Positions 37,713-59,615 of a DNA stretch of 64,000 bases are shown here, piece by piece. The position numbers and the translations under genes are program-made. Positions within the stretch are counted from its first letter, which is position 1. Every line of letters starts with the position of its first letter. Origin of the DNA: Trypanosoma brucei (lineage: Eukaryota); NCBI GenBank assembly GCA_000002445.1, contig CP000070.1:1056001-1120000 (forward strand), written 5' to 3'. The notes under the pieces were generated by a model. It saw only the letters and a program-made list of their open reading frames with translations, was not told the origin of the DNA and did no database searches.

Positions 37713-39236
37713 ATGGATCTGGATTCTTTCCTCGACAAGAAGAGCAAAAAACTTGCTGGTGGAAAGAAGAAGGCGAAAACAAGCGAACTTTCTGAGAAGG
37801 AGAAGGCGCAGTTGGGAATAGGCGTGTTTCTTGGGCTTGATGTTACCCCTGCAGCGCACGCACAATCGGAAGAAGCGGGTGAAGATGACAAGAGGGAAAG
37901 TAAAAATGGTGTATCAGATCCCGATGGGGTAGCAGCTGTTGAGGCCACTGTGCAGTCAGGGATTCAAACAAACAAGGATCCCGATGTTCCGGCCGTGCGT
38001 AACGCTTGGGTCGATGAAGGGGCTGAAGCTGGTGGTGGTGCTGAGGTGGGAGCTATTCCCGGAAACTTGGCCGTGCCAGTGATTAGAAGCACTGGTAAAA
38101 AAGCTAAGGGTTGGGATTCGGTGAAGGTAACGTCGGGCTCGATAGAGGACCTTCTCGCAAAGGCAACCGAAAGCGGGAAACGACAGAAGTTTGTTGCTCG
38201 CGGCAACGAGGGTGCCACAGGGTCACTTGGTTGTGAGGTGCTTGCTAGTGCAACAAGTTTTCCTTCGCTCGACGAGCTAACAGGAGGGGCAGCTGCCCCT
38301 GCGAAAGAAACTGGCTCAACACCAACTCTTGACACGTGTGGTTCAGTGGAAGATGTGAGCGCTGAAGTGGACAAGGTGACTTCCAGCACGTATAAACCGC
38401 CAGTAGACAAACCGGTTTCTGGTGTTTACAGACCGCCAACAGAGAAACCCACATCTGGAGCGTACAGGCCACCAACCGATAAACCTGCAACTGGCGCATA
38501 TAAGCCCCCAACCGATAAACCCTTCTCAGGAGCATACAGACCACCAGCGGACAAACCGTCTTCGGGAGCCTACAGACCGACTGCAGCGAAACTAGGAGAG
38601 GTGATGGCAGCAACAACAGCACGAGACGAGACTTCTTCCGAAAAACCAGCTGCGGGAGCGTATAGGCCGCCCATTGACAAACCTTCTTCCGGTGCGTATA
38701 AACCGCCGGTGGATAAACCGTCTTCTGGTGCGTACAAACCTCCAACGGACAAATCCTCCCTGGGTGCGTACGAACCTCCCAGTGAAAAACCAGCTTCAGT
38801 GCCGGCCGTACCTGCTGAATCCTCTGCGGTAAAACCGTCCACTGGAGCGTACAGGCCACCGACCGATAAACCACCCACAGGTGTATACAAACCCCCAGTG
38901 GATAAACCGTCCACTGGAGCGTACAGGCCTCCAACAGACAAACCGTCATCGGGGGGAGCTTATGTGCCTCCAAGTGAGAGGCTTGCAACTGCCGCGCCGG
39001 GGGAGCAGCTGTCTGTCGAGAAACCGTCGGCAGGAACGTACAAACCTCCTACTGATAGGGTTTCATCCGGATCATACAAACCACCCACTGACAGGCCATC
39101 AGCAGGGGCATATAAACCCCCAACCGATAAACCCTCCTCGGGAGCATACAGACCACCAACGGACAGACCGTCTTCGGGAGCCTACAGACCACCAGCCGAA
39201 AGAAGTTTCGGCAGCACCTTTAGACCACCAAGCTAA
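37713..39236 (+). CDS. proline-rich repetitive protein, 507 aa, with about 25 copies of a 12-aa unit YRPPTDKPSSGA
   Basis: ATG at 37713. N-terminal K/E-rich region. From about residue 227, degenerate 36-bp/12-aa repeats (YKPPVDKPVSGV / YRPPTEKPTSGA / YRPPTDKPATGA …). Confidence 0.65.
   Translation: MDLDSFLDKKSKKLAGGKKKAKTSELSEKEKAQLGIGVFLGLDVTPAAHAQSEEAGEDDKRESKNGVSDPDGVAAVEATVQSGIQTNKDPDVPAVRNAWVDEGAEAGGGAEVGAIPGNLAVPVIRSTGKKAKGWDSVKVTSGSIEDLLAKATESGKRQKFVARGNEGATGSLGCEVLASATSFPSLDELTGGAAAPAKETGSTPTLDTCGSVEDVSAEVDKVTSSTYKPPVDKPVSGVYRPPTEKPTSGAYRPPTDKPATGAYKPPTDKPFSGAYRPPADKPSSGAYRPTAAKLGEVMAATTARDETSSEKPAAGAYRPPIDKPSSGAYKPPVDKPSSGAYKPPTDKSSLGAYEPPSEKPASVPAVPAESSAVKPSTGAYRPPTDKPPTGVYKPPVDKPSTGAYRPPTDKPSSGGAYVPPSERLATAAPGEQLSVEKPSAGTYKPPTDRVSSGSYKPPTDRPSAGAYKPPTDKPSSGAYRPPTDRPSSGAYRPPAERSFGSTFRPPS
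38391..39200 (+). repeat. in-frame degenerate 36-bp tandem repeats encoding (Y[RK]PP[TVAS][DE]KP[SATF][ST]GA)n
   Basis: The periodicity is visible in the translation and in recurring DNA strings such as ccaccaacggacaaaccgtcttcgggagcctacagacc (found at about 38541 and about 39141). Antisense ORFs 38245..38988 and 38570..38941 are by-products of the repeat. Confidence 0.8.
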
Positions 39237-40045
39237 GGTAGCGATCTTCTTCCGCTACGAAACTGAAGGTGAGTGACGCGTTAGTGCTCGCTAGTGGGGA
39301 CAGGTGTTGTTTTTCTTTTTGTTTGTTTGAAGAGAAGAACGTTTTTTCGTTGGAAGGTGACGAAGTCCAGCTTCCACACGGGGGAAGGAGAGTATGCGCA
39401 TCTTTTTTTCCTATTTTGACTACCAATTGGCTCTGCACCTGTGATGAAGGTGGAGACACTTCTATCCGATGGAATAACCGGCGTGTTCTAACGGTATCTC
39501 ACTGCGGAGAATTATTGTTTGCGTACGCATTATTCGCCTCCTACTTTTCCACTCGTTACAAAGAGTGAAAAGTAACCAATACGCCATCAGGGACGCTTTG
39601 ACAAGGGACCCAGCAAGTGAGTGGTCCACCTGGTGAAGCTGAATTTCAGTTGTCTACCTGCGGGGAGGGGGGTGTGACGTTGGAGGAGACTTGACTTTCA
39701 TTTCTTCATACTTCTAGCCCTGGCCCCATTCTGTACACATGTATATGTATGTGTATGTGTATGTGTATGGGTGTGTGCATATACTCTGTGGTTGCTCATA
39801 CCATAACGGGTGGAGGTGTGGTGTGGTGGGACCACCTGTGCCGGCACTTGAGTCACCCGTCAAAAGCTTGAGAAGAAGCGAACAACACAACCTCCTGCTT
39901 TCACCCCCGAGATGCGCGGAATGGCACCTCAGCGGGAACGTTGTGGCGATATTTCCCCTCCGATCCTTCCCCGCAACGTACTTACAAAGAATATGCACAA
40001 CAGGACCCTTGTTAGGGTAAAGCGTATATGTGTGTGTCGCACATT

Positions 40046-40161: not shown

Positions 40162-43100
40162 ATGGGTAATGAACCCTTCTTGTTGTTTAGGGGTAGCGAG
40201 CTGCTTCCAGGCTTTCCGTCAAGCCGGCCGGAAGGGAATTTGGCTCAACCCGACGAAGGTGACGTGGAGCGTTTGCCGACGCATCTGATTCCCATTGAAC
40301 CTCTCACACACTCCGTGGTGCGAGTCGTCTGCCATTCTTCCACCCGTGCGGGTATGTCAACGCCACTTGCCCAAATGTGCGCACTAACTGATGTCCGTAG
40401 ATTGTTGGAGGAAGAAAGAGATAAATGCGTTGAGACGGCTCGGTCGTGGGAAGGACTGTGCGCACTTCACTCACACTATCCCCACGATCACGCCACAGGC
40501 TGCATGCCAATAGCAAACGAAGAGTTAGACTGTGTGGCGTCCAGCTTATCCCTGGATGAATCTTTTGTCAAGGAAGTTCTTCGGAGCAAACTCTGGAGGG
40601 TGAAAGGCAACGCTGAAAGTGCGGATGGTAAGGTCGAACCTGATTTGAAGCGCCTCAAAATAGTTGTGTCTGATTTGTGCCAGCTTCTGTGGCACCATCG
40701 TGATGGAGAGGGGTCCATAAGCACCGACGGTGTTGCTGTGCCAGACTCGAGTGAGCGCTGTGAAGTCGTTAGACGGGAAAAGAGAAAGGCATCAAAGGTC
40801 GAGGCAAAGAGCGTTTTGTCCATTATCGCAGGACTAACAAAAGACAGTTTGGACGAACTCACAGCCAGCCATGGCAGCGTAGAGCCCCTCCTTGTGGGTT
40901 TAGTCTTTAGTGAGGTGTCGGAGGAAACTTGTAATCATAGCGGAGGAGAGACGGTTGGAACGCTCGTGGGGGATGATTTGCTGAGGCTGTTCGACAAAAA
41001 GGTTGAGGCCACTGTGGAAAACAAGGATGGTTACGGTGATACAGTTGATTTTTCTGCCCGGGTACTGCTCCTTAACGCTGTTATGGAGAGGAAGAACATG
41101 AAAAACATGGCCCATGCCTCTCCAATGTGGTCAGCGCTCCTGTCGGTGGTAAACTTTGTGTATGTCACTGGTGATCCTGCAACTGTCCGTTACGTCGCTC
41201 AACTGATCAACCATGTGCAATGTTTGACACAACAGGTCACTGCGGAGCCCGCACCTAGACCGCATTCAAAGGTGGACATCTCTCTTTTTTACACTCCTCT
41301 GATGGGTGTTGAGAACGAGGAGGGTCTTTACCCAAGTGGTGCACGCTGTGTTTCCAACCTAAAGACCGCGTTGTCGGAAGCAGTCGTTGGCGTGGCGAAT
41401 AAAAAAAGATGGAAACCGGAAGCTTTTTCCCCTGGCGGTTCGGGAGGATTTCAGGATTTGTTGCAATGGTCACTTATGCTGGAGCACGTGTGGCACCACT
41501 GCGGCAGCGCCCCCTGTCACAAGGTTTCTCGGGGGATAGAGCAATGGATTGGCATGGCTGTTGAGACGGCTGCCGATATCTTCGCGTCTACTGCGGAGGC
41601 TTTGCTGCTTTCCATGTATGTTATGGAGCCACTTCCTCCTGTATGCCTGCCTGTAGCGGACAACACAGAAACTGCTGTCAAATCGGTTGCTGGTTCACCG
41701 GGTTTCAGTGTGGGTGATGTTCTTCTTTCTGCGCATCGTGTATCGTTGTTGGTCTTTGGAGCTGTTGTAGGTCCATGTGCTTCTGACAACCCTCTGCTTC
41801 GGCGGGAGGCACTGGAGGACCTTTACGGGGCTCACCTGAAAGCATCTGAGGCAGTAAGGGGACGACTAGAACGGTTTTGCGCGCGGCAGGCCGAGCGCAC
41901 TGTGGATGCTTCGCCGGCACTAAAAAATCTGGAAAAATATCAAAGTCAGTGGAGTAAGACAGTCGAGCTTGAGCAGGGTAAAAAGGGGGATTCCCTCGCA
42001 CGCATTTTATACGTGTGCATGGAAGGAATGCATCATATTTTAAGTACACCACTTATTAAACATTGTGACGTTCCATATGATCTTGGCGAAAACGCCATAG
42101 CAGGCGTTGATGGTTGGCGTTGCAGTGGCGCTACCACCTCGTGCGTGGGAAGGACGACTACCAATTGTGGATACGGCGCAAAGGTGAACCAGAGGTGCCA
42201 GGTGACCGAAAGTCCAATTACTTCATCATGGGCTTCGGCTGCAAAATCTTCTGCGATTTGCAACTTCACAATGCAACGCCTCCTGCCGATGTTGCTACAC
42301 TCATTAGGGCAGCAACCGGTGGTTTTGAATGGGAACTCTATCGTTAATGTTGGAACGCGCAGGGCCGTGCAGTCTTGGGAAGATCAGCGGATGCAACTGG
42401 AGGGACGGTGTAGGGCGGCTGAGGCGATGATTGAGCACCAACGGTGCGTGATAGGCGAGATTAGAAATCAAAGAAGTGCACTTGGGAATCGACTACGTGA
42501 GGCACAACGGTGCATGAGAAAACTGGTTATGATGTGTGTGGGGTATGAAGAAGGACACGCGAGCTACGCCCAGAAGTTAGCTTTTCGACTGAAATATAGC
42601 TTGGAGGAAGATATCACTAGTATTTTCGTTCCCATTGAGGTAAAGCCGGTTGCGGGATCGGATGCTTGGGACGGCGGGGAAACTTCTCAACAGTCATCTC
42701 CGTCGCCGTTGGTGTGCGGTGAAGCTTCAATGGTAGCACCCTTAGCGGGCCGGGACGATCTGCGCAGGTTAATGTTCCGCGATGCGCAAATGCAACTCGA
42801 CGCTTGCCACAATGTCGTGCGGTGCGTTTGTCAAGAAGCTCGGGAAAACCTCAATACACTTTCAGCTGCCATGATGGAGTGCAGTATAAGTTACGGAAAT
42901 GTCTCCCCCAACGAGTCGTTGCGCGCAATGTTTTCCACTTCACTTTACGGAACGAGGACGAATGAACCCAGCGGTGGTTACATGCCCCCTACTGGTGATC
43001 AAGAATGTGACTGTGACGGCAGTAACCAAGGTGATATGTACCAAAAAGATGATTCAAAGCACACATATCCCTCTACAATCATCAAAGTACCCCTGGGGTT

Positions 43101-46100
43101 AAGTACTCACAATAATAATCACAAAAATTTCGAAGGCAAAAATCAACCCCGTGGGCGGGCTCTCGAAATTTCCTCCAATGAGTCGCGTCCACTGTCTCAC
43201 ACAGGAAAAACAACTTGGGGCTCGAGAGACGAACAAATTTATCAGCACGAAAAGCAACAAACACTTAACACATCTACAAAGCGCCGATACGTCTCAACAC
43301 CGTCAGCTTCGCGGTGTTCATCAAGAGACATAGTAGCAGTCATCCAATCACCAAAACCAAGCAAGGCGGCCATCGACGCCATTGCACATCTCCAAAAGAA
43401 ACATGCCGAAGGAAAATCTCATCACCAACATTTAAAAAAGCAATACGAAGATACGTGTCTGTCTTTGGTGAAAACAGCAGCGGAATTTCAAGAGAACATA
43501 GCAAGACAAAAGATAGAACAGACCTGCTGGTCTGAACAGAACAAAATACTATTAGCGTTCATCAATACAACCGTGAGGGAGACACAGATATCGATGATGA
43601 AACAAAAAATCGAAAAGGAACGCACATTGACGGAGGAGGATTCCCGAAAATTAGCTACTGACCGTCGGGTGCTTGACTTATCTAAGGTGTATTTTGACTC
43701 ACTGAACGAGGTACGTGAATCCATGGCGGAACACTATGGTACTCTCATGTGTGAATGCAAAACAGTACTGAGTAATGCGAATGCTACAAGCTATGAAGCT
43801 CATCAGCAGTTGGCGGAGGAGATTCGTGCTCGTGAATTAGCTACTGACCGTCGGGTGCTTGACTTATCTAAGGTGTATTTTGACTCACTGAACGAGGTAC
43901 GTGAATCCATGGCGGAACACTATGGTACTCTCATGTGTGAATGCAAAACAGTACTGAGTAATGCGAATGCTACAAGCTATGAAGCTCATCAGCAGTTGGC
44001 GGAGGAGACTCGTGCTCGTGAATTAGCTACTGACCGTCGGGTGCTTGACTTATCTAAGGTGTATTTTGAGTCACTGAACGAGGTACGTGAATCCATGGCG
44101 GAACACTATGGTACTCTCATGTGTGAATGCAAAACAGTACTGAGTAATGCGAATGCTACAAGCTATGAGGCTCATCAGCAGTTGGCGGAGGAGACTCGTG
44201 CTCGTGAATTAGCTACTGACCGTCGGGTGCTTGACTTATCTAAGGTGTATTTTGACTCACTGAACGAGGTACGTGAGTCCATGGCGGAACACTATGATAC
44301 TCTCATGTGTGAATGCAAAACAGTATTGAGTAATGCGAATGCTACAAGCTATGAAGCTCATCAGCAGTTGGCGGAGGAGATTCGTGCTCGTGAATTAGCT
44401 ACTGACCGTCGGGTGCTTGACTTATCTAAGGTGTATTTTGACTCACTGAACGAGGTACGTGAATCCATGGCGGAACACTATGATACTCTCATGTGTGAAT
44501 GCAAAACAGTATTGAGTAATGCGAATGCTACAAGCTATGAGGCTCATCAGCAGTTGGCGGAGGAGACTCGTGCTCGTGAATTAGCTACTGACCGTCGGGT
44601 GCTTGACTTATCTAAGGTGTATTTTGACTCACTGAACGAGGTACGTGAGTCCATGGCGGAACACTATGATACTCTCATGTGTGAATGCAAAACAGTACTG
44701 AGTAATGCGAATGCTACAAGCTATGAAGCTCATCAGCAGTTGGCGGAGGAGACTCGTGCTCGTGAATTAGCTACTGACCGTCAGGTGCTTGACTTATCTA
44801 AGGTGTATTTTGACTCACTGAACGAGGTACGTGAATCCATGGCGGAACACTATGATACTCTCATGTGTGAATGCAAAACAGTATTGAGTAATGCGAATGC
44901 TACAAGCTATGAAGCTCATCAGCAGTTGGCGGAGGAGACTCGTGCTCGTGAATTAGCTACTGACCGTCGGGTGCTTGACTTATCTAAGGTGTATTTTGAC
45001 TCACTGAACGAGGTACGTGAATCCATGGCGGAACACTATGATACTCTCATGTGTGAATGCAAAACAGTATTGAGTAATGCGAATGCTACAAGCTATGAAG
45101 CTCATCAGCAGTTGGCGGAGGAGATTCGTGCTCGTGAATTAGCTACTGACCGTCGGGTGCTTGACTTATCTAAGGTGTATTTTGACTCACTGAACGAGGT
45201 ACGTGAATCCATGGCGGAACACTATGATACTCTCATGTGTGAATGCAAAACAGTATTGAGTAATGCGAATGCTACAAGCTATGAAGCTCATCAGCAGTTG
45301 GCGGAGGAGATTCGTGCTCGTGAATTAGCTACTGACCGTCGGGTGCTTGACTTATCTAAGGTGTATTTTGACTCACTGAACGAGGTACGTGAATCCATGG
45401 CGGAACACTATGGTACTCTCATGTGTGAATGCAAAACAGTACTGAGTAATGCGAATGCTACAAGCTATGAGGCTCATCAGCAGTTGGCGGAGGAGACTCG
45501 TGCTCGTGAATTAGCTACTGACCGTCGGGTGCTTGACTTATCTAAGGTGTATTTTGACTCACTGAACGAGGTACGTGAGTCCATGGCGGAACACTATGAT
45601 ACTCTCATGTGTGAATGCAAAACAGTACTGAGTAATGCGAATGCTACAAGCTATGAAGCTCATCAGCAGTTGGCGGAGGAGATTCGTGCTCGTGAATTAG
45701 CTACTGACCGTCGGGTGCTTGACTTATCTAAGGTGTATTTTGAGTCACTGAACGAGGTACGTGAATCCATGGCGGAACACTATGATACTCTCATGTGTGA
45801 ATGCAAAACAGTACTGAGTAATGCGAATGCTACAAGCTATGAAGCTCATCAGCAGTTGGCGGAGGAGATTCGTGCTCGTGAATTAGCTACTGACCGTCGG
45901 GTGCTTGACTTATCTAAGGTGTATTTTGACTCACTGAACGAGGTACGTGAATCCATGGCGGAACACTATGATACTCTCATGTGTGAATGCAAAACAGTAC
46001 TGAGTAATGCGAATGCTACAAGCTATGAAGCTCATCAGCAGTTGGCGGAGGAGATTCGTGCTCGTGAATTAGCTACTGACCGTCGGGTGCTTGACTTATC

Positions 46101-47388
46101 TAAGGTGTATTTTGAGTCACTGAACGAGGTACGTGAATCCATGGCGGAACACTATGGTACTCTCATGTGTGAATGCAAAACAGTATTGAGTAATGCGAAT
46201 GCTACAAGCTATGAAGCTCATCAGCAGTTGGCGGAGGAGACTCGTGCTCGTGAATTAGCTACTGACCGTCGGGTGCTTGACTTATCTAAGGTGTATTTTG
46301 AGTCACTGAACGAGGTACGTGAATCCATGGCGGAACACTATGATACTCTCATGTGTGAATGCAAAACAGTATTGAGTAATGCGAATGCTACAAGCTATGA
46401 AGCTCATCAGCAGTTGGCGGAGGAGACTCGTGCTCGTGAATTAGCTACTGACCGTCAGGTGCTTGACTTATCTAAGGTGTATTTTGAGTCACTGAACGAG
46501 GTACGTGAATCCATGGCGGAACACTATGGTACTCTCATGTGTGAATGCAAAACAGTACTGAGTAATGCGAATGCTACAAGCTATGAGGCTCATCAGCAGT
46601 TGGCGGAGGAGACTCGTGCTCGTGAATTAGCTACTGACCGTCGGGTGCTTGACTTATCTAAGGTGTATTTTGATTGTGCTGGGGTGCTATGTGACGCTGT
46701 TTTCAAAAAATGTATTTTTTTTGGTGGTGTAGTGTTTGATATTTGTCGTGATTGTTTGGTTCCTATGTCTATTTGTTCTTCCGTGTCGCTGGGCGGTGTT
46801 TATGCTTTGGGTGGCATTGATGGACTTGTGTACGAAATGGAATTGAGGAAACGGCGCATTGCAGAGTTGGAAGAATGTGTTCGGCAGAAGCACATTGTTA
46901 TCACATCACTAAAAGAGAGTATTGCCAACTTGTATGGCCTTTTGGAGGCACAGCGAGATCTTGGCATGGTCGCTCCACCTCCACCACCGTTAGTGTCGCG
47001 CGAGTTTGGTGTGCTGAACTCGAGTGCGAAAGAAGCCGTGGCATATGTGAACAGTGATGCATCTTTTTCTAGTACTTTTTTTGCATCACCATCTCGTGTT
47101 CTATCCCCTGGTGTTAATGACGGGGTGAAGTTGAAAGTGTGTCCCAGATCATTTGCTGATGAGGCTGTGTTATCAGCGGAGACAGTTGGGGGCGCTTTTA
47201 CTTCATCAAATGATCATCATGTTGCCGTTGGTGGGGTAGTTGGACACGAAGCTAATCGTACCGACCAAATTACGGATGAAGGTGAACGGTTGCAGGGCTG
47301 GAGCCTTCCTATTGATCGTAAGGAGATGCGACCAGTAAGTTGGTATTTGCAGTCTATCGCTGCCATTGAGAGTACGCTCAAGAAGTAG
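40162..47388 (+). CDS. very large repeat-containing protein, 2408 aa: about 1160-aa unique N-terminal region, 16 tandem 62-aa repeats, about 240-aa unique C-terminus
   Basis: ATG at 40162, preceded by a polypyrimidine tract at 40046..40097. Uninterrupted 7.2-kb ORF. Repeat unit ELATDRRVLDLSKVYFDSLNEVRESMAEHYGTLMCECKTVLSNANATSYEAHQQLAEEIRAR, predicted α-helical. Confidence 0.85.
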   Translation: MGNEPFLLFRGSELLPGFPSSRPEGNLAQPDEGDVERLPTHLIPIEPLTHSVVRVVCHSSTRAGMSTPLAQMCALTDVRRLLEEERDKCVETARSWEGLCALHSHYPHDHATGCMPIANEELDCVASSLSLDESFVKEVLRSKLWRVKGNAESADGKVEPDLKRLKIVVSDLCQLLWHHRDGEGSISTDGVAVPDSSERCEVVRREKRKASKVEAKSVLSIIAGLTKDSLDELTASHGSVEPLLVGLVFSEVSEETCNHSGGETVGTLVGDDLLRLFDKKVEATVENKDGYGDTVDFSARVLLLNAVMERKNMKNMAHASPMWSALLSVVNFVYVTGDPATVRYVAQLINHVQCLTQQVTAEPAPRPHSKVDISLFYTPLMGVENEEGLYPSGARCVSNLKTALSEAVVGVANKKRWKPEAFSPGGSGGFQDLLQWSLMLEHVWHHCGSAPCHKVSRGIEQWIGMAVETAADIFASTAEALLLSMYVMEPLPPVCLPVADNTETAVKSVAGSPGFSVGDVLLSAHRVSLLVFGAVVGPCASDNPLLRREALEDLYGAHLKASEAVRGRLERFCARQAERTVDASPALKNLEKYQSQWSKTVELEQGKKGDSLARILYVCMEGMHHILSTPLIKHCDVPYDLGENAIAGVDGWRCSGATTSCVGRTTTNCGYGAKVNQRCQVTESPITSSWASAAKSSAICNFTMQRLLPMLLHSLGQQPVVLNGNSIVNVGTRRAVQSWEDQRMQLEGRCRAAEAMIEHQRCVIGEIRNQRSALGNRLREAQRCMRKLVMMCVGYEEGHASYAQKLAFRLKYSLEEDITSIFVPIEVKPVAGSDAWDGGETSQQSSPSPLVCGEASMVAPLAGRDDLRRLMFRDAQMQLDACHNVVRCVCQEARENLNTLSAAMMECSISYGNVSPNESLRAMFSTSLYGTRTNEPSGGYMPPTGDQECDCDGSNQGDMYQKDDSKHTYPSTIIKVPLGLSTHNNNHKNFEGKNQPRGRALEISSNESRPLSHTGKTTWGSRDEQIYQHEKQQTLNTSTKRRYVSTPSASRCSSRDIVAVIQSPKPSKAAIDAIAHLQKKHAEGKSHHQHLKKQYEDTCLSLVKTAAEFQENIARQKIEQTCWSEQNKILLAFINTTVRETQISMMKQKIEKERTLTEEDSRKLATDRRVLDLSKVYFDSLNEVRESMAEHYGTLMCECKTVLSNANATSYEAHQQLAEEIRARELATDRRVLDLSKVYFDSLNEVRESMAEHYGTLMCECKTVLSNANATSYEAHQQLAEETRARELATDRRVLDLSKVYFESLNEVRESMAEHYGTLMCECKTVLSNANATSYEAHQQLAEETRARELATDRRVLDLSKVYFDSLNEVRESMAEHYDTLMCECKTVLSNANATSYEAHQQLAEEIRARELATDRRVLDLSKVYFDSLNEVRESMAEHYDTLMCECKTVLSNANATSYEAHQQLAEETRARELATDRRVLDLSKVYFDSLNEVRESMAEHYDTLMCECKTVLSNANATSYEAHQQLAEETRARELATDRQVLDLSKVYFDSLNEVRESMAEHYDTLMCECKTVLSNANATSYEAHQQLAEETRARELATDRRVLDLSKVYFDSLNEVRESMAEHYDTLMCECKTVLSNANATSYEAHQQLAEEIRARELATDRRVLDLSKVYFDSLNEVRESMAEHYDTLMCECKTVLSNANATSYEAHQQLAEEIRARELATDRRVLDLSKVYFDSLNEVRESMAEHYGTLMCECKTVLSNANATSYEAHQQLAEETRARELATDRRVLDLSKVYFDSLNEVRESMAEHYDTLMCECKTVLSNANATSYEAHQQLAEEIRARELATDRRVLDLSKVYFESLNEVRESMAEHYDTLMCECKTVLSNANATSYEAHQQLAEEIRARELATDRRVLDLSKVYFDSLNEVRESMAEHYDTLMCECKTVLSNANATSYEAHQQLAEEIRARELATDRRVLDLSKVYFESLNEVRESMAEHYGTLMCECKTVLSNANATSYEAHQQLAEETRARELATDRRVLDLSKVYFESLNEVRESMAEHYDTLMCECKTVLSNANATSYEAHQQLAEETRARELATDRQVLDLSKVYFESLNEVRESMAEHYGTLMCECKTVLSNANATSYEAHQQLAEETRARELATDRRVLDLSKVYFDCAGVLCDAVFKKCIFFGGVVFDICRDCLVPMSICSSVSLGGVYALGGIDGLVYEMELRKRRIAELEECVRQKHIVITSLKESIANLYGLLEAQRDLGMVAPPPPPLVSREFGVLNSSAKEAVAYVNSDASFSSTFFASPSRVLSPGVNDGVKLKVCPRSFADEAVLSAETVGGAFTSSNDHHVAVGGVVGHEANRTDQITDEGERLQGWSLPIDRKEMRPVSWYLQSIAAIESTLKK
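43651..46672 (+). repeat. 186-bp near-perfect tandem repeat array, 16 full units plus about 46 bp of a 17th, entirely in-frame within the giant CDS
   Basis: The ttagctactgaccgtcgggtgc unit start recurs at 43651, 43837, 44023 … 46627, period exactly 186 bp. Units differ only at a few sites (GAC/GAG, GGT/GAT, ATT/ACT, CGG/CAG, CTG/TTG, GAA/GAG). Confidence 0.95.
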
Positions 47389-47800: not shown

Positions 47801-48367
47801 ATGCCCTCACTAGCGAACGGGTTGCGTTGCCCGGATGCGCTCATCACCCGGACGTTGAATCCGCTACTCAATGGACCGAAGTTTGCGGTAATATACTGTG
47901 GAAATCACCAGTACAAAGTTGCGGTAGGCGATGTCATTGCGGTTCAGCGGCTTCGGGTCGAAATAGGAAGTCATATTGCTCTTAAAAAGGTGCTGATGGT
48001 AGGTGGCCCGCGCTTCACGGCTATCGGCCGTCCTCTTCTTGAAGGTGTACGGGTAACCGCACAGGTGGAGGAGCAAAAGCGGATGCGCAATGTGGTTTCG
48101 TTATTTGCCACGCCAGGTAGGCGACATGTGCGGTGGGTGGATGCACCTCATGCTGCAACAGTTATTCGCATTTGTGAAATATTTTACTCTCCCAATGTGG
48201 TTGGTGAGTTGGATAAGTACAAGGGCGAGTTGTTGGAAACGTTTACACCAGGTCAGCACACGAACCCAGTGTACCCCGTTGATGATGGCTATGACGTGTT
48301 TAGGAAGAAAGATAAGGAGGCCATGGAGAATGCCACCACCTTTCTCGACCTTTTGGGTGGTGTGTGA
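47801..48367 (+). CDS. mitochondrial ribosomal protein bL21m (bacterial L21 family), 188 aa
   Basis: ATG at 47801. FAVIYCGNHQYKVAVGDVIAVQRLRVEIGSHIALKKVLMVGG…RVTAQVEEQKRMRNVVSLF…HAATVIRI parallels bacterial bL21 (YAVIxTGGKQYKVxxGDxIxVEKL…VxAxVxxHGRGxKVxxFK…TxVxI). An N-terminal extension is consistent with a mitochondrial targeting sequence. Confidence 0.7.
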   Translation: MPSLANGLRCPDALITRTLNPLLNGPKFAVIYCGNHQYKVAVGDVIAVQRLRVEIGSHIALKKVLMVGGPRFTAIGRPLLEGVRVTAQVEEQKRMRNVVSLFATPGRRHVRWVDAPHAATVIRICEIFYSPNVVGELDKYKGELLETFTPGQHTNPVYPVDDGYDVFRKKDKEAMENATTFLDLLGGV

Positions 48368-53425: not shown

Positions 53426-53466
53426 GGTTTTTTTTGTTGTTTTTTATTTTTTTCCTTCTATTGTTA
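53426..53466 (+). promoter_or_regulatory. polypyrimidine tract upstream of ELO copy a
   Basis: ggttttttttgttgttttttatttttttccttctattgttaAG immediately 5' of ATG 53482. Confidence 0.45.
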
Positions 53467-53481
53467 AGTGATTTGCCGAAG

Positions 53482-54387
53482 ATGTTGATGAACTTCGGGG
53501 GCTCCTACGATGCCTACATAAATAACTTCCAAGGTACCTTTCTTGCGGAGTGGATGTTGGATCATCCATCGGTTCCTTACATCGCAGGCGTCATGTATCT
53601 CATTCTTGTACTCTACGTACCGAAAAGCATTATGGCGAGTCAACCGCCCCTCAATCTTAGGGCCGCCAACATCGTGTGGAATCTGTTTCTGACATTATTT
53701 TCAATGTGCGGCGCGTATTACACCGTTCCGTACCTCGTGAAAGCGTTCATGAATCCTGAAATTGTCATGGCAGCCTCGGGGATAAAATTAGACGCAAACA
53801 CCTCACCAATAATCACACATAGTGGTTTCTATACCACCACGTGCGCTTTGGCTGATAGCTTTTACTTCAACGGTGATGTGGGTTTCTGGGTTGCACTTTT
53901 TGCCCTGTCAAAGATCCCTGAAATGATTGACACGGCCTTTCTTGTCTTCCAAAAGAAGCCGGTTATTTTTCTACACTGGTACCATCACCTCACTGTGATG
54001 CTTTTCTGTTGGTTTGCCTACGTGCAGAAAATTTCCAGCGGTCTGTGGTTTGCCTCCATGAACTATTCTGTCCACTCCATCATGTACTTGTACTACTTTG
54101 TATGTGCCTGCGGTCACCGTCGCCTCGTCCGTCCATTCGCTCCGATAATTACATTTGTGCAAATATTTCAGATGGTGGTGGGTACGATTGTTGTGTGTTA
54201 CACGTACACTGTAAAGCATGTGTTGGGAAGGAGCTGCACAGTAACAGACTTCTCTCTTCATACTGGTTTGGTAATGTATGTGAGTTACCTGCTTCTTTTT
54301 TCGCAGCTCTTCTACCGCAGCTATCTCAGTCCGAGGGATAAGGCCAGTATTCCACACGTAGCAGCGGAAATAAAGAAAAAAGAGTAA
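53482..54387 (+). CDS. ELO-family fatty-acid elongase (3-ketoacyl-CoA synthase), copy a of three in tandem, about 301 aa
   Basis: The track start at 53434 is TTG; the first ATG is at 53482. All four ELO signature boxes are present: SKIPEMIDT (KxxExxDT), LHWYHHLT (HxxHH), HSIMYLYYF (HxxMYxYY), ITFVQIFQM (TxxQxxQ). Multiple TM helices. C-terminal K-rich tail KKKE (ER-retention-like). Confidence 0.88.
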   Translation: MLMNFGGSYDAYINNFQGTFLAEWMLDHPSVPYIAGVMYLILVLYVPKSIMASQPPLNLRAANIVWNLFLTLFSMCGAYYTVPYLVKAFMNPEIVMAASGIKLDANTSPIITHSGFYTTTCALADSFYFNGDVGFWVALFALSKIPEMIDTAFLVFQKKPVIFLHWYHHLTVMLFCWFAYVQKISSGLWFASMNYSVHSIMYLYYFVCACGHRRLVRPFAPIITFVQIFQMVVGTIVVCYTYTVKHVLGRSCTVTDFSLHTGLVMYVSYLLLFSQLFYRSYLSPRDKASIPHVAAEIKKKE

Positions 54388-55706
54388 ATGAAAGAATGGG
54401 GAGTTTAGTGGAGGATGGGGAAGAGCACGCACGCGTGTCTGCTCACGTGCTTATGTGTTTTGACAATGTTGAAGGTAAAAAGAAAAGAAGGAAAATGAGA
54501 AGAGTGATGGGTGGTGTTCGTCGCAGGCATGATCTGTGGCGTGTCCCTGCACTTGGTTCGATTTATTGCATTGGTTTCATTTCCTTTTCTCTTTTTTTTG
54601 TTCATAAAAAAATGCACACGCACGCAGTCGCACGCTCAGCTGTTCGCTTCGGTTGCTTGCTACTCCCCTACCATATTGTTTTTTGTGTGTGTATTTTGCA
54701 GTTGTAACTTCCACCTTCCCTTACTTTCACTTTGGGATGAACCAAAAAATAAAGGAAACGAAAATAAAAACGAAAAAAAGGAACATATATATATATATAT
54801 ATGCTAAATGTCATACGAGTTATTTAGCGCATACACACAAAGAGGTGTGTGTGTGTGTATTGGTAGGGCAATAATGCATCACCGTATCCCTCAAGCAATT
54901 CTACTCTGTTGACTCCATTCCTCCTCTCCTATCTTTTTTTACCCTTGTTTATTTTTCTCTTTTGAGGGACCGAACAAAAAAAAAATACGACAGTCACTTC
55001 TGAATAAGCAGCATTGTGGCAACGTATATTTTTTGTGTTCTTTTTTGTCCCCTTTAGCTCCCCTATTTTTCCACAGGGACACTTTGTTTCCTTCCTCCTT
55101 CGCACATACGGTAAACATACATACATACATACACATGTACACACAAACACATATTATATTATATATATATATATATATATATAATATGAGTGTGTGCCGT
55201 TGTGCGTGTGAAGGTTCGCTCACAGATATCCCTCAAACGTTAAACTCCCGTATTAAACGGTGGAAGAAAACAATATAAAAAAAGGGGAAGGGAGTCCAAC
55301 CGCGTAATATTGGGCGTAATAAATGTAGTGTGGCCAATCTTTCGTTTGTTTCAGTTCTTGTCACAAAATTAGTCTCTCTCCTTTCTTCTTCCTTCTTCAC
55401 CTACTCTTGCGGATATATACATGTGCGTACAAATGCACGCGGGTATATATGAATATTTGTTTGAGTCGTTCTGGTATTGAAAAGGTTACGACAGCAAACG
55501 ATACTTTTTAACAGAAAATAAATACGCTGAACGACTCGATTTATTAGTGAGGGTTGAGTGCATACAAATATACAAAAGTAGGTAAAAATATATTTAAATA
55601 TAAATATATATATATATATATATATCAACTCACAGAGCCTTTCTGGTGAGAAGGAAGCGTATTCGGTTAACAGAAATTAAACGAATAGTGGCGTAAGTGC
55701 GACGAG

Positions 55707-56522
55707 ATGTTTCCATACGTCACAGACTATAGCGGTTTTGCTATCAGGAAATGGATGATTGATAATGTGGATGTTGCCGGCTTCCTTTGCCTCTTGTATC
55801 TTGGGCTTGTGTGGAAGGGACCAGGCGTCGTGAAGAGCCTCAGAGAAAAGAATTTAATCAATGCAACACTTCTTCAGGGCGTTTTTATTATGTGGAATCT
55901 CTTTTTGTCCACCTTTTCCGTCATCGGAATGATCGTCGTTGTTCCCGCCGCTATTGCACACATCAGCAACAAGGGACTTGTTCCCGCTCTTTGCGAGAGG
56001 GATGTAAACATGATTTACGACTCTCCCGTCGGTTTCTGGGTTGGTGTGTTTGCGTTGTCAAAAATACCGGAATTGTTTGACACGGTTCTTCTTGTTTTGC
56101 AGGGGAAACAACCTCCGTTCCTTCATTGGTATCACCACACCACCGTGTTAATCTTCTCTTGGCAAAGCTACTGCGAGGGAAGTAGTACCATATTTGTCTT
56201 TGTTGCCATGAACCTGACGGTACATGCCGTCATGTACTTTTACTTCGCCATGTGTGCCAGTGGATTCAAGGCGATTATGCGAACCATTGCTCCGGTTATT
56301 ACAATTATGCAAATTTTGCAGATGATAGTTGGCAGCGCTGTAACAATGTACTCCGCATATGTACTTTACAATCCTCAACCTGATGGGCCACAGACTTGCG
56401 ATGTGACAAAAGCAAGCGCTCGGATGGGAGTGGTGATGTATTTGAGTTATTTGTACCTCTTCGCTGCGCTGTTTGTTGAGTCATACCTGAAACCAAAAAA
56501 GAGGACCGAAAAGTCGAAATGA
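55707..56522 (+). CDS. ELO-family fatty-acid elongase, copy b, 271 aa
   Basis: ATG at 55707. Signature boxes SKIPELFDT, LHWYHHTT, HAVMYFYFA, ITIMQILQM. C-terminal KPKKRTEKSK. Confidence 0.88.
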   Translation: MFPYVTDYSGFAIRKWMIDNVDVAGFLCLLYLGLVWKGPGVVKSLREKNLINATLLQGVFIMWNLFLSTFSVIGMIVVVPAAIAHISNKGLVPALCERDVNMIYDSPVGFWVGVFALSKIPELFDTVLLVLQGKQPPFLHWYHHTTVLIFSWQSYCEGSSTIFVFVAMNLTVHAVMYFYFAMCASGFKAIMRTIAPVITIMQILQMIVGSAVTMYSAYVLYNPQPDGPQTCDVTKASARMGVVMYLSYLYLFAALFVESYLKPKKRTEKSK

Positions 56523-58440
56523 AGTACGGGACGGTAAAGAAAACAACAACGGGGTAATTTTTTTTTGTTTTTTCTTGTTTGTTTGTTGTAGAAACGTGGG
56601 TAACCGGGGAGGGGATGAGGGGGAGAAACGCCACTGGCACGGGACTAATGAACTAACGCCTTTTTATTTATTTATTTATTACCCTCTTCCCTTTTGTTTT
56701 TGGGAATGGAGGGGAAGAAGAAAACCATAACGCGATGCGTCGCAGCGTTTCGGTATGCGAGGAAGAGAGAGGGGAAAAACAAAAAGGAGCAGACAATTTT
56801 GAATGGCAGGGATGAGGGAAGAAAAAACAGTTTGGCACGTTCGACTGTTTTAATACTCGCTATTGAAACGAAAAAAAAAAATAAAAGAAAAGACAAACAA
56901 GCGCGCAAGTAAAATTAAGACCCAAACTGAGCAGGACGGAGCAAATTTTCCAAAACAAAAAATTACCTTGTGAGGAATCACAACTGATATGCGAGCAATC
57001 GGAAGGGAAAAGCAAAAGGAAAATTTGTGCGTGAAGGAGGGCATAACAATGAAGTAAATGCCAAGAAAGAAAGGAAAAAGAAAAAGAACAAAGTAGATAC
57101 TTACAATACAATACAAAAAAAAAGTAGGAAAACAGATGGCTTGAATGTATTATTTCTTCCGATGCGTTATTTTCCCCCTCTCCATGGTCCCCGTTTATGT
57201 CCTCTCAACTTACCGCTACCACGAGCCCAATAATTTATAAACAAAGCTCGTGGCATATGTGTATGTATGTGTATGTGTATATGTGCGTATGTATGTATGC
57301 ATGCATAATTATTTTTGCATTCATATGGACGCATATAAACGCATATACACATGTTTCTTTTTTTTTTTGTTTCGCCTTCTAAATCCCCTCCCCACTTTGG
57401 GGGGGGGGGAGAGTAGTGGTTTTATTTCGTTTCGTTTTAGTTTTTTATCATTTTTTTTAAATATAATAATTTCATATTTATCTCGTAATTATTTTATTTT
57501 TCGTAGTTGTTGTGTTTGTTTCCTCATTTATTCACAACCAATCACTCTCTTCGTTATATTTTTGGTTGCTTTTGACGACTACTTTACTACAATCATTATT
57601 ATTATTATCATTATTGTTCCTTCTTTTTCTTTTTTGTGTTATTATTTCAAAAAAATTGTAATAAAATAAACATTCACGCTACTTCGTGGTTGTTCACTCA
57701 TGAGAATGTTCTCATGAATATCGCAGCGGATTTGTTTGTCTATTAATTTTTTTTTCACCTTTTTAATTTCTCTCCTCATTTCTCTCTACACTCAATCACC
57801 TTATATTCCACTACTTTAGCCGTTTAGTGAAATCATATGACTAAATAAGCGCATTGACGTGAGCGTGAGCTGAAAGTGCTTTGTATATAATAAAAAAAAA
57901 AGAAAAAAGGCGCGGTTTTTAAAAAAAAAAATAGATAAATAAAATAATTCATCTGTCGATGAGAAATGGGAAATGTTTTCTGCCGTGGGGAGCTGATGCC
58001 GACGCCAATGGAAAACAGCCGGTTGACTCCGTCTAAAAACTTAATCGTGGCTATTTTATTTTTTTGTAACTTTAATTGCAACTTGAGGCTGTTGGAGTTA
58101 CTGGTGCATAATGAAGTGATACACGAAGGAGAGACGGATTATATTCTTCTTATCTGTAATGTCTTATGGGTGGTTTTTTTTTTGGGGGGGATAATACTGT
58201 AAAAGGAAAGCATAGGTGACGCACATTTTTGCGCCGTTGGTGTTGTTGTTCTTGTTGAGTGTAAATGTAAAATTATTTTCCAGAAATGGGGTGCTGCTGT
58301 GGGTTGTCGTGACAAACACTTCCTAACTTAATTATGATAATGCCAAACACTAGCAGGGATTGTGGAAGTTACAATCGGAAGGCCGATTCGTGTTTAACTC
58401 GATGAATATTATGTAAATGTGATGTTCGCCGTGTTTAAAC

Positions 58441-58522
58441 TTCTTCGTTTCTCCCTTCAGTACGCTCATTTGTTGTTTTCTGTGTCCGGTTTTTTTTCCT
58501 GTTTTGTTTGCCTCCTTCAACC
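58441..58522 (+). promoter_or_regulatory. polypyrimidine tract upstream of ELO copy c
   Basis: ttcttcgtttctcccttcAGtacgctcatttgttgttttctgtgtccggttttttttcctgttttgtttgcctccttcaacc. Several candidate AG acceptors. Confidence 0.4.
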
Positions 58523-58697
58523 TGGACGTTTGCGCGCCCACTCACATACACGATAGTGAAGAAAAGGCATACAAAAAGAGTAAAAAAAATAAATAAAAGA
58601 AGTAAGGGAAAGTAAAGGAAAAAAAAAGAGGTAGCGTGTGCATCGAGTTCGACTGCGTCAAGAAAACCGGAATATAATACATCCTTAAGCACGACAA

Positions 58698-59615
58698 ATG
58701 TTTTTTACTCCTCCACAACTTCAGAAGCTTGAGCAGGACTGGAATGGGCTCGCAGTGCGTGATTGGATGATTGCCAATGTGGATGTTGTGTTGTACATCT
58801 CTTTCCTCTACCTTGGATTCGTATTTATTGGCCCAAAATTGTTCGCTAAGCTTGTTGGCACAAACCCGGCCGCTGCTGCTGCTGGAGCCCGAAGCGCTGA
58901 CGGCACCGGCTCTCCAATCGTTCGCCGGTCGATGGTTGTGTGGAATTTGGCGCTTTCAATTTTCTCCATCTTCGGCACAAGCACTGTGACGCCTGTACTT
59001 CTGCGTAACCTTGCCAATAAGGGGTTCTACGGTGCCACCTGTGACTTCAAGGAAACGGAATTTTACACAACAAATGTTGGATTCTGGATGGGTATTTTCG
59101 CTCTTTCAAAGATACCGGAGCTTGTTGACACGATATTCCTCGTGTTGCAGGGCAAACAGGAGTTGCCTTTCCTTCATTGGTATCACCATGTGACAGTTCT
59201 GTTGTTCTCATGGCACACGTACTGTGTAGGGAGTAGCGCATACATTTGGGTGGCCGCTATGAATTACTCCGTACATTCCGTCATGTACCTTTACTTCGCC
59301 CTTGCAGCATTAGGATACAAACGCGTAGTTCGCCCACTTGCGCCGTACATCACAATTATACAGATACTACAAATGGTTGTGGGTTGTTATGTGACTATTT
59401 TTGCACTTCAGGAGTTGCATGGGGAGGGGGGTCGCGGATGTGGTGTGTCGCCAGCGAACATGCGCATTCAATTGGTGATGTACGCCAGTTATTTGTACCT
59501 CTTCTCGAAGATGTTTGTGGCGTCGTACATTCGACCCCCCAAGCGCCCGACTGTTGGCGGTCCCTCCTCAACAGCCGGCGTCAGCAACGGTTCTGTCGAG
59601 AAGAAAGTTAAATAA
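58698..59615 (+). CDS. ELO-family fatty-acid elongase, copy c, 305 aa, with Ala/Gly-rich loop insertion between the first two TM helices
   Basis: ATG at 58698. Signature boxes SKIPELVDT, LHWYHHVT, HSVMYLYFA, ITIIQILQM. Insertion GTNPAAAAAGARSADGTGSPIV at roughly nt 58860..58925. Polypyrimidine tract 58441..58522 upstream. Confidence 0.88.
   Translation: MFFTPPQLQKLEQDWNGLAVRDWMIANVDVVLYISFLYLGFVFIGPKLFAKLVGTNPAAAAAGARSADGTGSPIVRRSMVVWNLALSIFSIFGTSTVTPVLLRNLANKGFYGATCDFKETEFYTTNVGFWMGIFALSKIPELVDTIFLVLQGKQELPFLHWYHHVTVLLFSWHTYCVGSSAYIWVAAMNYSVHSVMYLYFALAALGYKRVVRPLAPYITIIQILQMVVGCYVTIFALQELHGEGGRGCGVSPANMRIQLVMYASYLYLFSKMFVASYIRPPKRPTVGGPSSTAGVSNGSVEKKVK

What the first reader, a model, noticed from the sequence alone, without database searches (positions are those of the whole stretch)
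43651..46672. Sixteen near-identical 186-bp (62-aa) tandem repeats inside a 2408-aa ORF, with mosaic variant sites
The repeat ELATDRRVLDLSKVYFDSLNEVRESMAEHYGTLMCECKTVLSNANATSYEAHQQLAEEIRAR recurs 16 times, plus a truncated 17th, with an exact 186-bp period. Units differ only at about six sites: D/E at YF[DE]SL, G/D at HY[GD]TL, I/T at EE[IT]RAR, R/Q at DR[RQ]VL, plus silent CTG/TTG and GAA/GAG. These variants occur in shuffled combinations across units. Observed combinations are DGI, DGT, EGT, DDI, DDT, Q-DDT, EDI, EDT, Q-EGT. That pattern is the signature of ongoing unequal crossover and gene conversion (concerted evolution) rather than a single old duplication. Each unit carries a conserved Cys-x-Cys (MCECK) and is predicted helical. 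Together with about 1160 unique N-terminal residues, this looks like a cytoskeletal or flagellar scaffolding protein. DNA identity above 97% between units means copy number is very likely mis-estimated in a short-read assembly.
Basis: seen in the sequence. Interest (0 to 1): 0.7.

Follow-up and report, generated by a model that had tools for sequence, protein, structure and literature searches.

The report
Variable 62-residue repeat array, trypanosome gene
An uncharacterised Trypanosoma brucei gene (Tb927.7.4130) really does contain sixteen near-identical 62-amino-acid repeats; other T. brucei subspecies carry 14 or 45 copies and more distant trypanosomes carry none, so it is a genuine but fairly ordinary expanding repeat in a protein of unknown role.

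Summary
Window 43648-46623 holds 16 in-frame 186-bp units plus 50 bp of a 17th, inside the 2408-aa ORF 40162-47388. Only that reading frame is open across the array.

The window is T. brucei brucei TREU927 chromosome 7. By gene order the gene is Tb927.7.4130, annotated "hypothetical protein, conserved".

- **Copy number:** the same gene has 14 units in T. b. gambiense DAL972 and 45 in a T. b. equiperdum assembly (which I take from memory to be long-read). The array boundaries are identical in all three.
- **Orthologues:** syntenic orthologues in T. cruzi and T. vivax have no array. With T. grayi, they carry a weakly related ~35-aa motif twice.
- **Concerted evolution:** this is supported. Edge units differ more between strains than from units in their own array. 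Variants private to one lineage occupy many units. The 45-unit array contains an exact 5-unit block duplication.
- **Caveat:** in TREU927 the variant sites cannot be distinguished from free assortment, so part of that mosaic may be an assembly artefact.
- **Function:** unknown. There is no domain, no match to a solved structure, no usable structure model and no literature. The cytoskeletal or flagellar idea is untested.

This is a new member of a well-known kind and of modest interest.

The parts
40162..47388 (+). Complete ORF, 2408 aa plus stop. It is T. brucei brucei TREU927 XP_846036.1 / Q57UP3, 'hypothetical protein, conserved', and by gene order Tb927.7.4130.
   Evidence: ORF list and translation. 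Exact-sequence look-up. Gene order is anchored by Tb927.7.4110 as the kinesin and by 4100 flagellum, 4140 mitoribosome and 4160-4180 elongases.
40162..43647 (+). Unique N-terminal region, 1162 aa. Residues ~36-914 (40267-42903) are conserved in Trypanosoma orthologues. Residues ~915-1068 are low-complexity and poorly conserved. A conserved helical stretch begins at AAIDAIAHLQ (43366).
   Evidence: phmmer against 1.84 billion representatives found only T. grayi, T. cruzi and T. vivax (E = 3e-69 to 3e-41). Alignments. pN/pS is 0.26 between TREU927 and DAL972. No Pfam or PDB relatives.
43648..46623 (+). Sixteen complete 186-bp (62-codon) tandem units. Consensus: ELATDRRVLDLSKVYFDSLNEVRESMAEHYDTLMCECKTVLSNANATSYEAHQQLAEETRAR.
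   Evidence: TRF. Unit-by-unit dissection. Only this frame is open.
46624..46673 (+). Truncated 17th unit: 50 bp identical to the consensus. The 3' junction is identical in TREU927, DAL972 and T. b. equiperdum.
46675..46821 (+). Cys-rich hydrophobic segment directly after the array (residues 2172-2220). Its first 22 residues resemble the second half of the orthologues' motif in the register set by the array.
   Evidence: MAFFT alignment. Fixed-register PSSM score of -5.3 against shuffles at -25.3 +/- 7.2, with 103 of 20000 shuffles as high. Hydropathy is about 1.6 with charged residues inside, so it is not a convincing membrane span.
46822..47025 (+). Conserved C-terminal helical block plus the proline motif (residues 2221-2288: ...LRKRRIAELEE...AQRDLGM..PPPPPLVSREFGVL).
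   Evidence: 28 invariant columns among four species. Alignment.
47329..47388 (+). Conserved extreme C-terminus (RPVSWYLQSIAAIESTLKK) and the stop codon.
   Evidence: Alignment. Coordinates.

Best explanation
The feature is a real, frame-preserving coding minisatellite inside Tb927.7.4130. This gene is found only in the genus Trypanosoma and has no known function.

Shown:
- The array is present in frame in three T. brucei subspecies assemblies with 16, 14 and 45 units and identical boundaries.
- It is absent from the syntenic orthologues of T. cruzi and T. vivax.
- Its units evolve in concert.

Inferred, DNA level: the orthologues carry two diverged copies of a ~35-aa motif 82-103 residues apart. 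In the T. brucei lineage, misaligned homologous recombination between two such copies created a 62-codon unit. Unequal exchange and gene conversion then amplified it and partly homogenised it, and they keep changing the copy number.

Inferred, protein level: each unit is an amphipathic alpha-helical module. The array lengthens a helical middle section that links a conserved ~900-aa N-terminal region, which is under purifying selection, to a conserved C-terminal helical, proline and WYLQS..AIES module. The exact unit sequence is only weakly constrained, and a threefold range of length is tolerated. The array therefore most likely acts as an extensible spacer or multivalent helical scaffold, not as a catalytic or sequence-specific element.
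For: - **Array and ORF:**
- **Reading frame:** 0 stops in frame against 48-153 in each of the other five frames.
- **Identity of the gene:**
- **Copy number:** 16, 14 and 45 units, exact 186-bp period, no indels in 75 units, same 3' junction.
- **Orthology:** only Trypanosoma hits among 1.84 billion representatives. Synteny with the ~500-aa gene upstream and mitoribosomal L21 downstream.
- **No array in the T. cruzi or T. vivax gene:**
- **Concerted evolution:** first and last units differ by 5-7 nt between TREU927 and the other strains but by 0-2 nt from a unit in their own array. The unique flank differs by about 1%. Alleles 51C, 92G and 121C are found only in TREU927, in 6-11 units. Alleles 113C and 143C are found only in the other lineage, in up to 16 units.
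- **Recombination:** the four-gamete test fails in all three arrays, with a minimum of 4, 1 and 2 events. Units 23-27 of the 45-unit array equal units 33-37 exactly, which 0 of 2000 shuffles reproduce.
- **Ancestral motif:** MAFFT places the unit on motif copy 1 and the tail on copy 2. A PSSM built only from the orthologues picks the same register, and 1 of 5000 shuffles scores as high. The tail gives 103 of 20000.
- **Helical character:** an all-helix model and a hydrophobic period of 62/17 = 3.65 residues, matched by 8 of 1000 shuffles.
- **Constraint:** pN/pS is about 0.81 in the units (12 nonsynonymous, 4 synonymous) against 0.26 in the N-terminus.
Against: - An HMM built from the orthologue motif does not score the T. 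brucei unit above shuffles (268 of 2000 as high). Descent of the unit from that motif therefore rests on position and on one ungapped test.
- Both structure models have low confidence (pLDDT 53 and 37).
- No evidence of expression or localisation was found. The gene ID is absent from the held text of the TrypTag, SILAC, differentiation-proteome and hyperLOPIT supplements. Neighbouring genes 4100, 4140 and 4160-4180 do appear in hyperLOPIT.
- Copy numbers come from assemblies, not from reads.
- T. congolense, the key intermediate species, could not be examined.
- A pN/pS near 1 also fits an array with no function at all.
Confidence: 0.7

Rival explanations
1. The array is real, but the details seen in this window are partly products of assembling near-identical units from a diploid genome with short reads. 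On this reading the count of 16 is not the true allele length. The apparently shuffled variant combinations arise because reads from different units and from both alleles were piled together. This does not exclude the main explanation.
For: After leaving out the first unit, TREU927 has 14 distinct haplotypes among 15 units and 14 four-gamete pairs. Free assortment gives 13.3 and 15.6, and neighbouring units are no more alike than distant ones. The 45-unit array is strongly structured: 12 haplotypes against 22.1 expected and 7 four-gamete pairs against 15.9, both P < 1/3000. Copy number is 14-16 in the two older assemblies and 45 in the third. That the older two are Sanger-era assemblies and the third is long-read is from my own knowledge. 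The short-read T. equiperdum OVI assembly contributes the neighbouring gene to the protein clusters but not this one.
Against: With only 15 units the test detects the structure of the 45-unit array in just 16 of 30 windows, so its power is about 50%. Fifteen distinct units would actually help a correct Sanger assembly. The frame, the period and both junctions are intact and identical to those of the other assemblies. True strain differences in copy number are expected for such arrays.
Confidence: 0.4
2. One reading: the protein is a cytoskeletal or flagellar scaffolding protein (FAZ, flagellum or subpellicular array), and the repeats form a structural rod.
For: The protein is large (~265 kDa), mostly helical by prediction, and built from amphipathic repeats. 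From my own knowledge, many large repeat proteins of T. brucei are cytoskeletal. The gene is restricted to the genus.
Against: There is no sequence match to any solved chain in the PDB. From my own knowledge, those entries include T. brucei flagellar and axonemal structures. The gene ID is not among the proteins in the held hyperLOPIT lists, whereas the neighbour Tb927.7.4100 is listed under flagellum. There is no Pfam domain. Neighbouring flagellar and kinesin genes carry no weight, because trypanosome transcription units are not grouped by function (established knowledge).
Confidence: 0.25
3. The array matters mainly as an antigen. Like many trypanosomatid tandem-repeat proteins, it would be an immunodominant B-cell target, and copy number and unit variants would be shaped by host immunity.
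For: It belongs to the general class of high-scoring tandem-repeat genes in a trypanosomatid. Variation within units is mostly nonsynonymous (12 nonsynonymous, 4 synonymous). The expansion is specific to one lineage of a mammalian parasite.
Against: There is no signal peptide and no convincing membrane span, so the protein would be intracellular. A pN/pS of about 0.8 is not above 1. No serological data or literature were found.
Confidence: 0.12
4. The array is functionally neutral or the gene is decaying. It would be a runaway minisatellite tolerated in a dispensable part of a dispensable protein.
For: pN/pS is about 0.81 in the units. A threefold range of length is tolerated. T. b. equiperdum carries a TCA-to-TAA nonsense codon that removes the conserved last 61 residues. 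The protein was not found in the proteomic supplements searched.
Against: There are no stops or indels in 75 units across three assemblies. The N-terminus is under purifying selection at 0.26. N- and C-terminal blocks and synteny are conserved across the genus.
Confidence: 0.15

Closest known systems
Large tandem-repeat proteins of trypanosomatids, such as T. brucei FAZ1, GM6 and MARP, T. cruzi FRA/H49, and the Leishmania K39 kinesin (named from my own knowledge, not tested here)
   Same: It has long runs of near-identical in-frame units inside a very large, mostly helical protein. Copy number differs between strains. Such arrays are hard to assemble.
   Different: No sequence similarity to any of them was detected in Pfam or the PDB. 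The 62-aa unit length is its own. Localisation and antigenicity are known for those proteins and unknown for this one.
Coding minisatellites (VNTRs) that evolve in concert, such as the yeast FLO/ALS adhesins and the mammalian mucins (established knowledge)
   Same: The period is a multiple of three, copy number is polymorphic, units carry mosaic variants, blocks of several units are duplicated, and variants spread within a lineage.
   Different: Those proteins are secreted or surface proteins with Ser/Thr-rich, usually disordered units. This one is a predicted intracellular helical unit with no signal peptide.
Its own orthologues: T. grayi XP_009311739.1 (1675 aa), T. cruzi KAF8279234.1 / XP_809648.1 (~1646 aa) and T. 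vivax KAG8342988.1 (1596 aa)
   Same: They share the N-terminal region, the C-terminal helical, proline and WYLQS..AIES module, and, for T. cruzi and T. vivax, the genomic position.
   Different: They have no tandem array. They carry only two diverged copies of a ~35-aa motif, 82-103 residues apart. Identity to the T. brucei protein is only about 30%.

Membership tests
Coding minisatellite / VNTR evolving in concert | Head-to-tail units whose period is a multiple of 3, with the reading frame open through the array | tested here: met
   Period 186 bp, 0% indels. There are 0 stops in frame against 48-153 in each other frame.
Coding minisatellite / VNTR evolving in concert | Copy number differs between strains | tested here: met
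   16, 14 and 45 full units in TREU927, DAL972 and T. b. equiperdum. This is based on assemblies, not reads.
Coding minisatellite / VNTR evolving in concert | Units within one genome are more alike than units at the same position in different genomes | tested here: met
   First and last units differ by 5-7 nt between TREU927 and the others but by 0-2 nt from a unit in their own array. Lineage-private alleles occur in many units. Mean identities differ only slightly: 98.3% within against 97.8-98.0% between.
Coding minisatellite / VNTR evolving in concert | Traces of recombination: incompatible site pairs and duplicated blocks of several units | tested here: met
   Four-gamete failures in 15 of 21, 1 of 1 and 7 of 21 site pairs, with a minimum of 4, 1 and 2 events. 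An exact 5-unit block duplication, matched by 0 of 2000 shuffles. Caveat for TREU927.
Trypanosomatid tandem-repeat antigen class | Recognised by sera of infected hosts | not testable with these tools
   No serological data were found.
Canonical heptad coiled coil | Hydrophobic periodicity of 3.5 residues in a helical segment | tested here: not met
   The Fourier peak is at 62/17 = 3.65 residues (power 1.02), against 0.28 at 3.44. This fits an amphipathic helix or an 11-residue-type repeat, not a plain heptad repeat. The helix prediction itself has low confidence (pLDDT 53).
FAZ / flagellar / subpellicular cytoskeletal repeat proteins of T. brucei | Localisation to the structure, or sequence relationship to a known component | tested here: inconclusive
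   No PDB chain matches. The ID is absent from the held hyperLOPIT and TrypTag supplement text, but some files were cut when stored. Localisation cannot be tested here.
Pfam DUF5748 / XPG_I / DUF948 (hits on the full protein) | At least one individually significant domain match | tested here: not met
   All three hits have 0 stretches that pass on their own. The scores are sums of weak matches repeated 16 times. Precomputed hits at the other loci are marked 'faint'.
C2H2 zinc finger (UniProt label on the T. cruzi orthologues) | The pattern C-x(2,4)-C-x3-[hydrophobic]-x8-H-x(3,5)-H | tested here: not met
   The pattern occurs once in T. cruzi only, in a non-conserved region. It is absent from T. 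brucei, T. grayi and T. vivax. The Cys-x-Cys of the unit does not fit it.

The most novel reading that the evidence does not exclude
The array is a recent expansion, specific to the T. brucei lineage, of the helical middle section of a genus-specific structural protein. Natural copy-number variation from 14 to 45 units would correspond to about 130 to about 420 nm if the helix were fully extended. It would then change the spacing between the conserved N- and C-terminal modules and so tune the size of some cell structure. Strains would provide a natural test of a molecular ruler.
Probability: 0.1. Interest if true: 0.55.

Novelty: new member of a known kind. Interest (0 to 1): 0.3.

Why it matters
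In practical terms, Tb927.7.4130 is a gene whose length in the reference genome should not be trusted. It ranges from 2284 to over 4100 codons between assemblies. That affects read mapping, proteomic quantification, primer and guide design, and any tagging or knock-out work. The array could also serve as a strain-typing marker.

In biological terms, it is a tidy example of how a two-copy motif in an ancestral protein can seed a large array in one lineage. The pre-expansion state is preserved in T. cruzi, T. grayi and T. vivax.

It does not open a new class of system. Trypanosomatid genomes contain many such repeat proteins, and nothing here points to an unusual mechanism.

Tried and rejected
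- **Word-indexed homologue search:** it returned nothing for the N-terminus. It also returned nothing for a four-species alignment of the C-terminal block, although one query row is an exact fragment of a protein in that collection. I judged the tool blind to this family and did not use the third search.
- **Pfam hits DUF5748, XPG_I and DUF948:** rejected as artefacts of summing weak matches over 16 repeats.
- **AlphaFold2:** four units gave pLDDT 53. The N-terminal 900 aa with a six-sequence orthologue alignment gave pLDDT 37. Both are too poor for a fold search, so none was run.
- **PDB sequence searches:** the N-terminus, and three units plus the C-terminus, gave only chance hits with E > 0.3.
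- **Membrane protein:** rejected. The maximum hydropathy is about 1.6, in segments that contain charged residues.
- **C2H2 zinc finger:** rejected.
- **HMM test of unit against orthologue motif:** negative. It is kept in the report beside the positive PSSM test.
- **Literature:** no hits for the gene ID, accession numbers or the repeat length. Nothing was found in the held supplement text of the TrypTag, SILAC, differentiation-proteome or hyperLOPIT papers. The RIT-seq paper is not held.
- **T. congolense:** its status could not be obtained with any tool.
Full report
**1. Observation**

Tandem Repeats Finder reports one outstanding array in the window, at 43649-46673. It has period 186, 16.3 copies, 98% matches, no indels and a score of 5812. 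It lies inside the ORF 40162..47388 on the + strand, 2408 aa.

Read in frame, sixteen complete units occupy 43648-46623. The first unit starts with K where the others have E. A 17th unit matches the consensus for exactly 50 bp (46624-46673) and then diverges. The 186 bp upstream of unit 1 show only random similarity to the unit (48 of 186).

There are eight variable columns. Five are nonsynonymous (K/E, R/Q, D/E, G/D, I/T) and three are silent. Fifteen of the sixteen units are distinct. Pairwise identity averages 98.3% with a minimum of 96.2%. Only the annotated frame is open across the array, with 0 stops against 48-153 in each of the other five frames.

**2. What and where it is**

The protein is an exact match to XP_846036.1 / AAZ12477.1 / Q57UP3, "hypothetical protein, conserved", of T. 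brucei brucei TREU927, on a 2.2-Mb record.

All 17 ORFs of at least 200 aa that do not sit inside a longer ORF lie on the + strand; the only two on the - strand each fall within a + ORF. This fits a trypanosome polycistronic unit. The neighbours are:
- a CCDC113/CFAP263 homologue and a kinesin upstream;
- a 507-aa proline-rich repeat protein immediately upstream;
- mitoribosomal L21, a 1251-aa unknown protein and three ELO elongases downstream.

Published tables give Tb927.7.4110 as the kinesin. They give Tb927.7.4100 as flagellar, 4140 as mitoribosomal and 4160-4180 as elongases. By gene order, the repeat gene is therefore Tb927.7.4130.

**3. Comparison with other assemblies**

The same 90% cluster holds the T. 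b. gambiense DAL972 protein (2284 aa) and a T. b. equiperdum protein (4145 aa). Both loci were fetched. They contain 14 and 45 complete units respectively. Both have the exact 186-bp period, no indel, the same K-type first unit and an identical 3' junction. The unique N-terminus is 98.5% identical in protein and about 99% in DNA.

Across the 75 units there are 16 variable columns.
- Three (positions 72, 150 and 176) are polymorphic inside all three arrays.
- Alleles 20A, 51C, 92G and 121C occur only in TREU927, in 2-11 units.
- Alleles 108G, 113C, 143C and 167T occur only in the gambiense/equiperdum lineage, in up to 24 units.

The positional first and last units differ by 5-7 nt between TREU927 and the other two assemblies. 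Yet each is within 0-2 nt of some unit in its own array. The unique flank differs by about 1%. This is the classical signature of concerted evolution.

The four-gamete test fails in all three arrays, with a minimum of 4, 1 and 2 recombination events. In the 45-unit array, units 23-27 are repeated exactly as units 33-37, a run that 0 of 2000 order shuffles reproduce. That is direct evidence for unequal exchange of blocks of several units.

**4. A caveat specific to this window**

In TREU927 the seven informative sites cannot be distinguished from complete free assortment. There are 14 haplotypes in 15 units against 13.3 expected, and 14 four-gamete pairs against 15.6 expected. Neighbouring units are no more alike than distant ones.

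The 45-unit array is strongly structured by contrast, with 12 haplotypes against 22.1 and 7 pairs against 15.9, both P < 1/3000. Full equilibrium between sites 21-31 bp apart is what a consensus built from mis-piled reads of a diploid array would look like.

Sub-windows of 15 units from the 45-unit array reveal its structure in only 16 of 30 cases. The contrast is therefore suggestive, not decisive. The copy number of 16 and the exact mosaic in this window should be treated as provisional.

**5. Orthologues and origin**

An exhaustive phmmer search of the first 1200 residues against 1.84 billion representatives found only three true relatives. They are T. grayi (1675 aa), T. cruzi (~1646 aa) and T. 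vivax (1058-aa and 1596-aa gene models), all annotated as hypothetical. No Leishmania or other kinetoplastid hit appeared.

The T. cruzi and T. vivax genes sit in the same position, between a ~500-aa unknown gene and L21. TRF finds no array in either. They share the N-terminal region and a C-terminal module (RRIAELEE..., PPPPPL[IV]S.EFG.L, WYLQS.SAIES).

In the stretch that corresponds to the array, each orthologue has a ~35-aa motif twice, 103, 103 and 82 residues apart. MAFFT places the T. brucei unit on copy 1. It places the truncated 17th unit plus the following Cys-rich tail on copy 2.

The tests of that correspondence gave mixed results.
- An HMM of the six orthologue motif copies does not score the unit above shuffles (268 of 2000 as high).
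- An ungapped PSSM built from the same six copies and scanned over all 62 registers picks exactly the MAFFT register (RRVLDLSKVYFDSL...). It scores 16.5 against -5.5 +/- 4.2, and 1 of 5000 shuffles scores as high.
- The 22 tail residues that are not part of the repeat score -5.3 against -25.3 +/- 7.2 in the register fixed by the array (103 of 20000).

I take this as moderate support for one scenario. The array arose in the T. brucei lineage by misaligned recombination between two ancestral motif copies. The resulting 62-codon unit was then amplified. T. congolense could not be examined, so the timing within the African trypanosomes is open.

**6. The protein**

No Pfam family truly matches. 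The hits to DUF5748, XPG_I and DUF948 have no individually significant stretch and are repeat-summing artefacts. The N-terminus, the C-terminus and the orthologues give nothing.

No solved structure is related by sequence. The C2H2 label that UniProt puts on the T. cruzi orthologues comes from a single pattern match absent from the other species.

AlphaFold2 on four units gives one ~60-residue helix per unit, but at pLDDT 53. The N-terminal 900 residues with the orthologue alignment give pLDDT 37. I ran no fold search on such models.

Hydrophobic residues in the unit recur with a period of 62/17 = 3.65 residues, not 3.5, and 8 of 1000 shuffles match that. This indicates an amphipathic helix or an 11-residue-type repeat, not a canonical heptad coiled coil. 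There is no convincing membrane span.

Variation among the 75 units is 12 nonsynonymous to 4 synonymous changes, a pN/pS of about 0.81. The N-terminus evolves at 0.26 between TREU927 and DAL972. The flanking domains are therefore constrained. For the array, what is conserved is the frame and the general character of the unit, not its exact sequence. If the helix were fully extended, 14, 16 and 45 units would span about 130, 149 and 419 nm. That is arithmetic, not a measurement.

**7. Mechanism and rivals**

My best explanation is a polymorphic coding minisatellite, specific to one lineage and maintained by unequal recombination and gene conversion. It encodes an extensible helical spacer or scaffold between two conserved modules of a Trypanosoma-specific protein. 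The DNA-level part is well supported. The protein-level part is inference.

The rivals are:
- partial assembly artefact in this particular window (about 0.4, and not exclusive of the main explanation);
- an antigenic repeat (about 0.12);
- a neutral or decaying array (about 0.15). The last gains a little from a TCA-to-TAA nonsense codon that removes the conserved C-terminus in T. b. equiperdum.

**8. Literature**

No searchable main text mentions Tb927.7.4130, its accession numbers or a 62-aa or 186-bp T. brucei repeat. The held supplement text of the TrypTag, SILAC, differentiation-proteome and hyperLOPIT papers does not list it. Its neighbours 4100, 4140 and 4160-4180 are listed in hyperLOPIT. 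Some files were cut when stored, so this is only weak negative evidence for abundance.

**9. Verdict**

The feature is real, correctly described and correctly attributed to T. brucei. The concerted-evolution reading and the copy-number warning are supported by independent assemblies. The functional guess is untested. Large, variable, in-frame repeat arrays are a familiar feature of trypanosomatid proteins, and the gene is already annotated. I rate it a new member of a known kind, with interest about 0.3.

Noticed in passing
window 37713-39236 (+): The gene just upstream (by order Tb927.7.4120, 507 aa) has a C-terminal two-thirds made of about 20 degenerate 12-aa units, G-A-Y-[KR]-P-P-[TV]-D-K-P-[ST]-[ST]. 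TRF reports period 36 at 72-76% match. It has no Pfam hit. Its pN/pS against DAL972 is 0.69.
   Followed up: partly
L001 15436-15438 (T. b. equiperdum GCA_003543875.1, CM010678.1): A TCA-to-TAA nonsense codon ends the repeat gene 61 codons early and removes the conserved WYLQSIAAIESTLKK end. The downstream frame is otherwise intact. Whether this is a real loss or an assembly error is unresolved.
   Followed up: partly
L004 6001-10790 (T. vivax GCA_021307395.1): The orthologue is split into two adjacent gene models (1058 + 529 aa) in this assembly, whereas another T. vivax assembly has a single 1596-aa model. A frameshift or an annotation split is likely.
   Followed up: no
L002 10115-10834 against window 47801-48367: The mitoribosomal L21 gene model is 239 aa in DAL972 but 188 aa in TREU927 and T. 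b. equiperdum. This probably reflects a different choice of start codon.
   Followed up: no
window 53434-59615 (+): Three tandem fatty-acid elongase (ELO) genes (317, 271 and 305 aa) lie downstream. They correspond to Tb927.7.4160-4180. Only the first was scanned against Pfam.
   Followed up: partly
window 39740-39782: A short TGTATG-type microsatellite lies in the intergenic region upstream of the repeat gene.
   Followed up: no
L003 (T. cruzi) against the window: In T. cruzi, a Ras/Roc GTPase gene lies between L21 and the ~1250-aa gene, and no kinesin was called between the CFAP263 homologue and the ~500-aa gene. These are small breaks in otherwise conserved synteny.
   Followed up: no
tool behaviour: The word-indexed homologue search returned no hit even for an alignment that contained an exact fragment of a T. 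cruzi protein listed as a representative of that same collection. Negative results from that tool for this family carry no information.
   Followed up: partly
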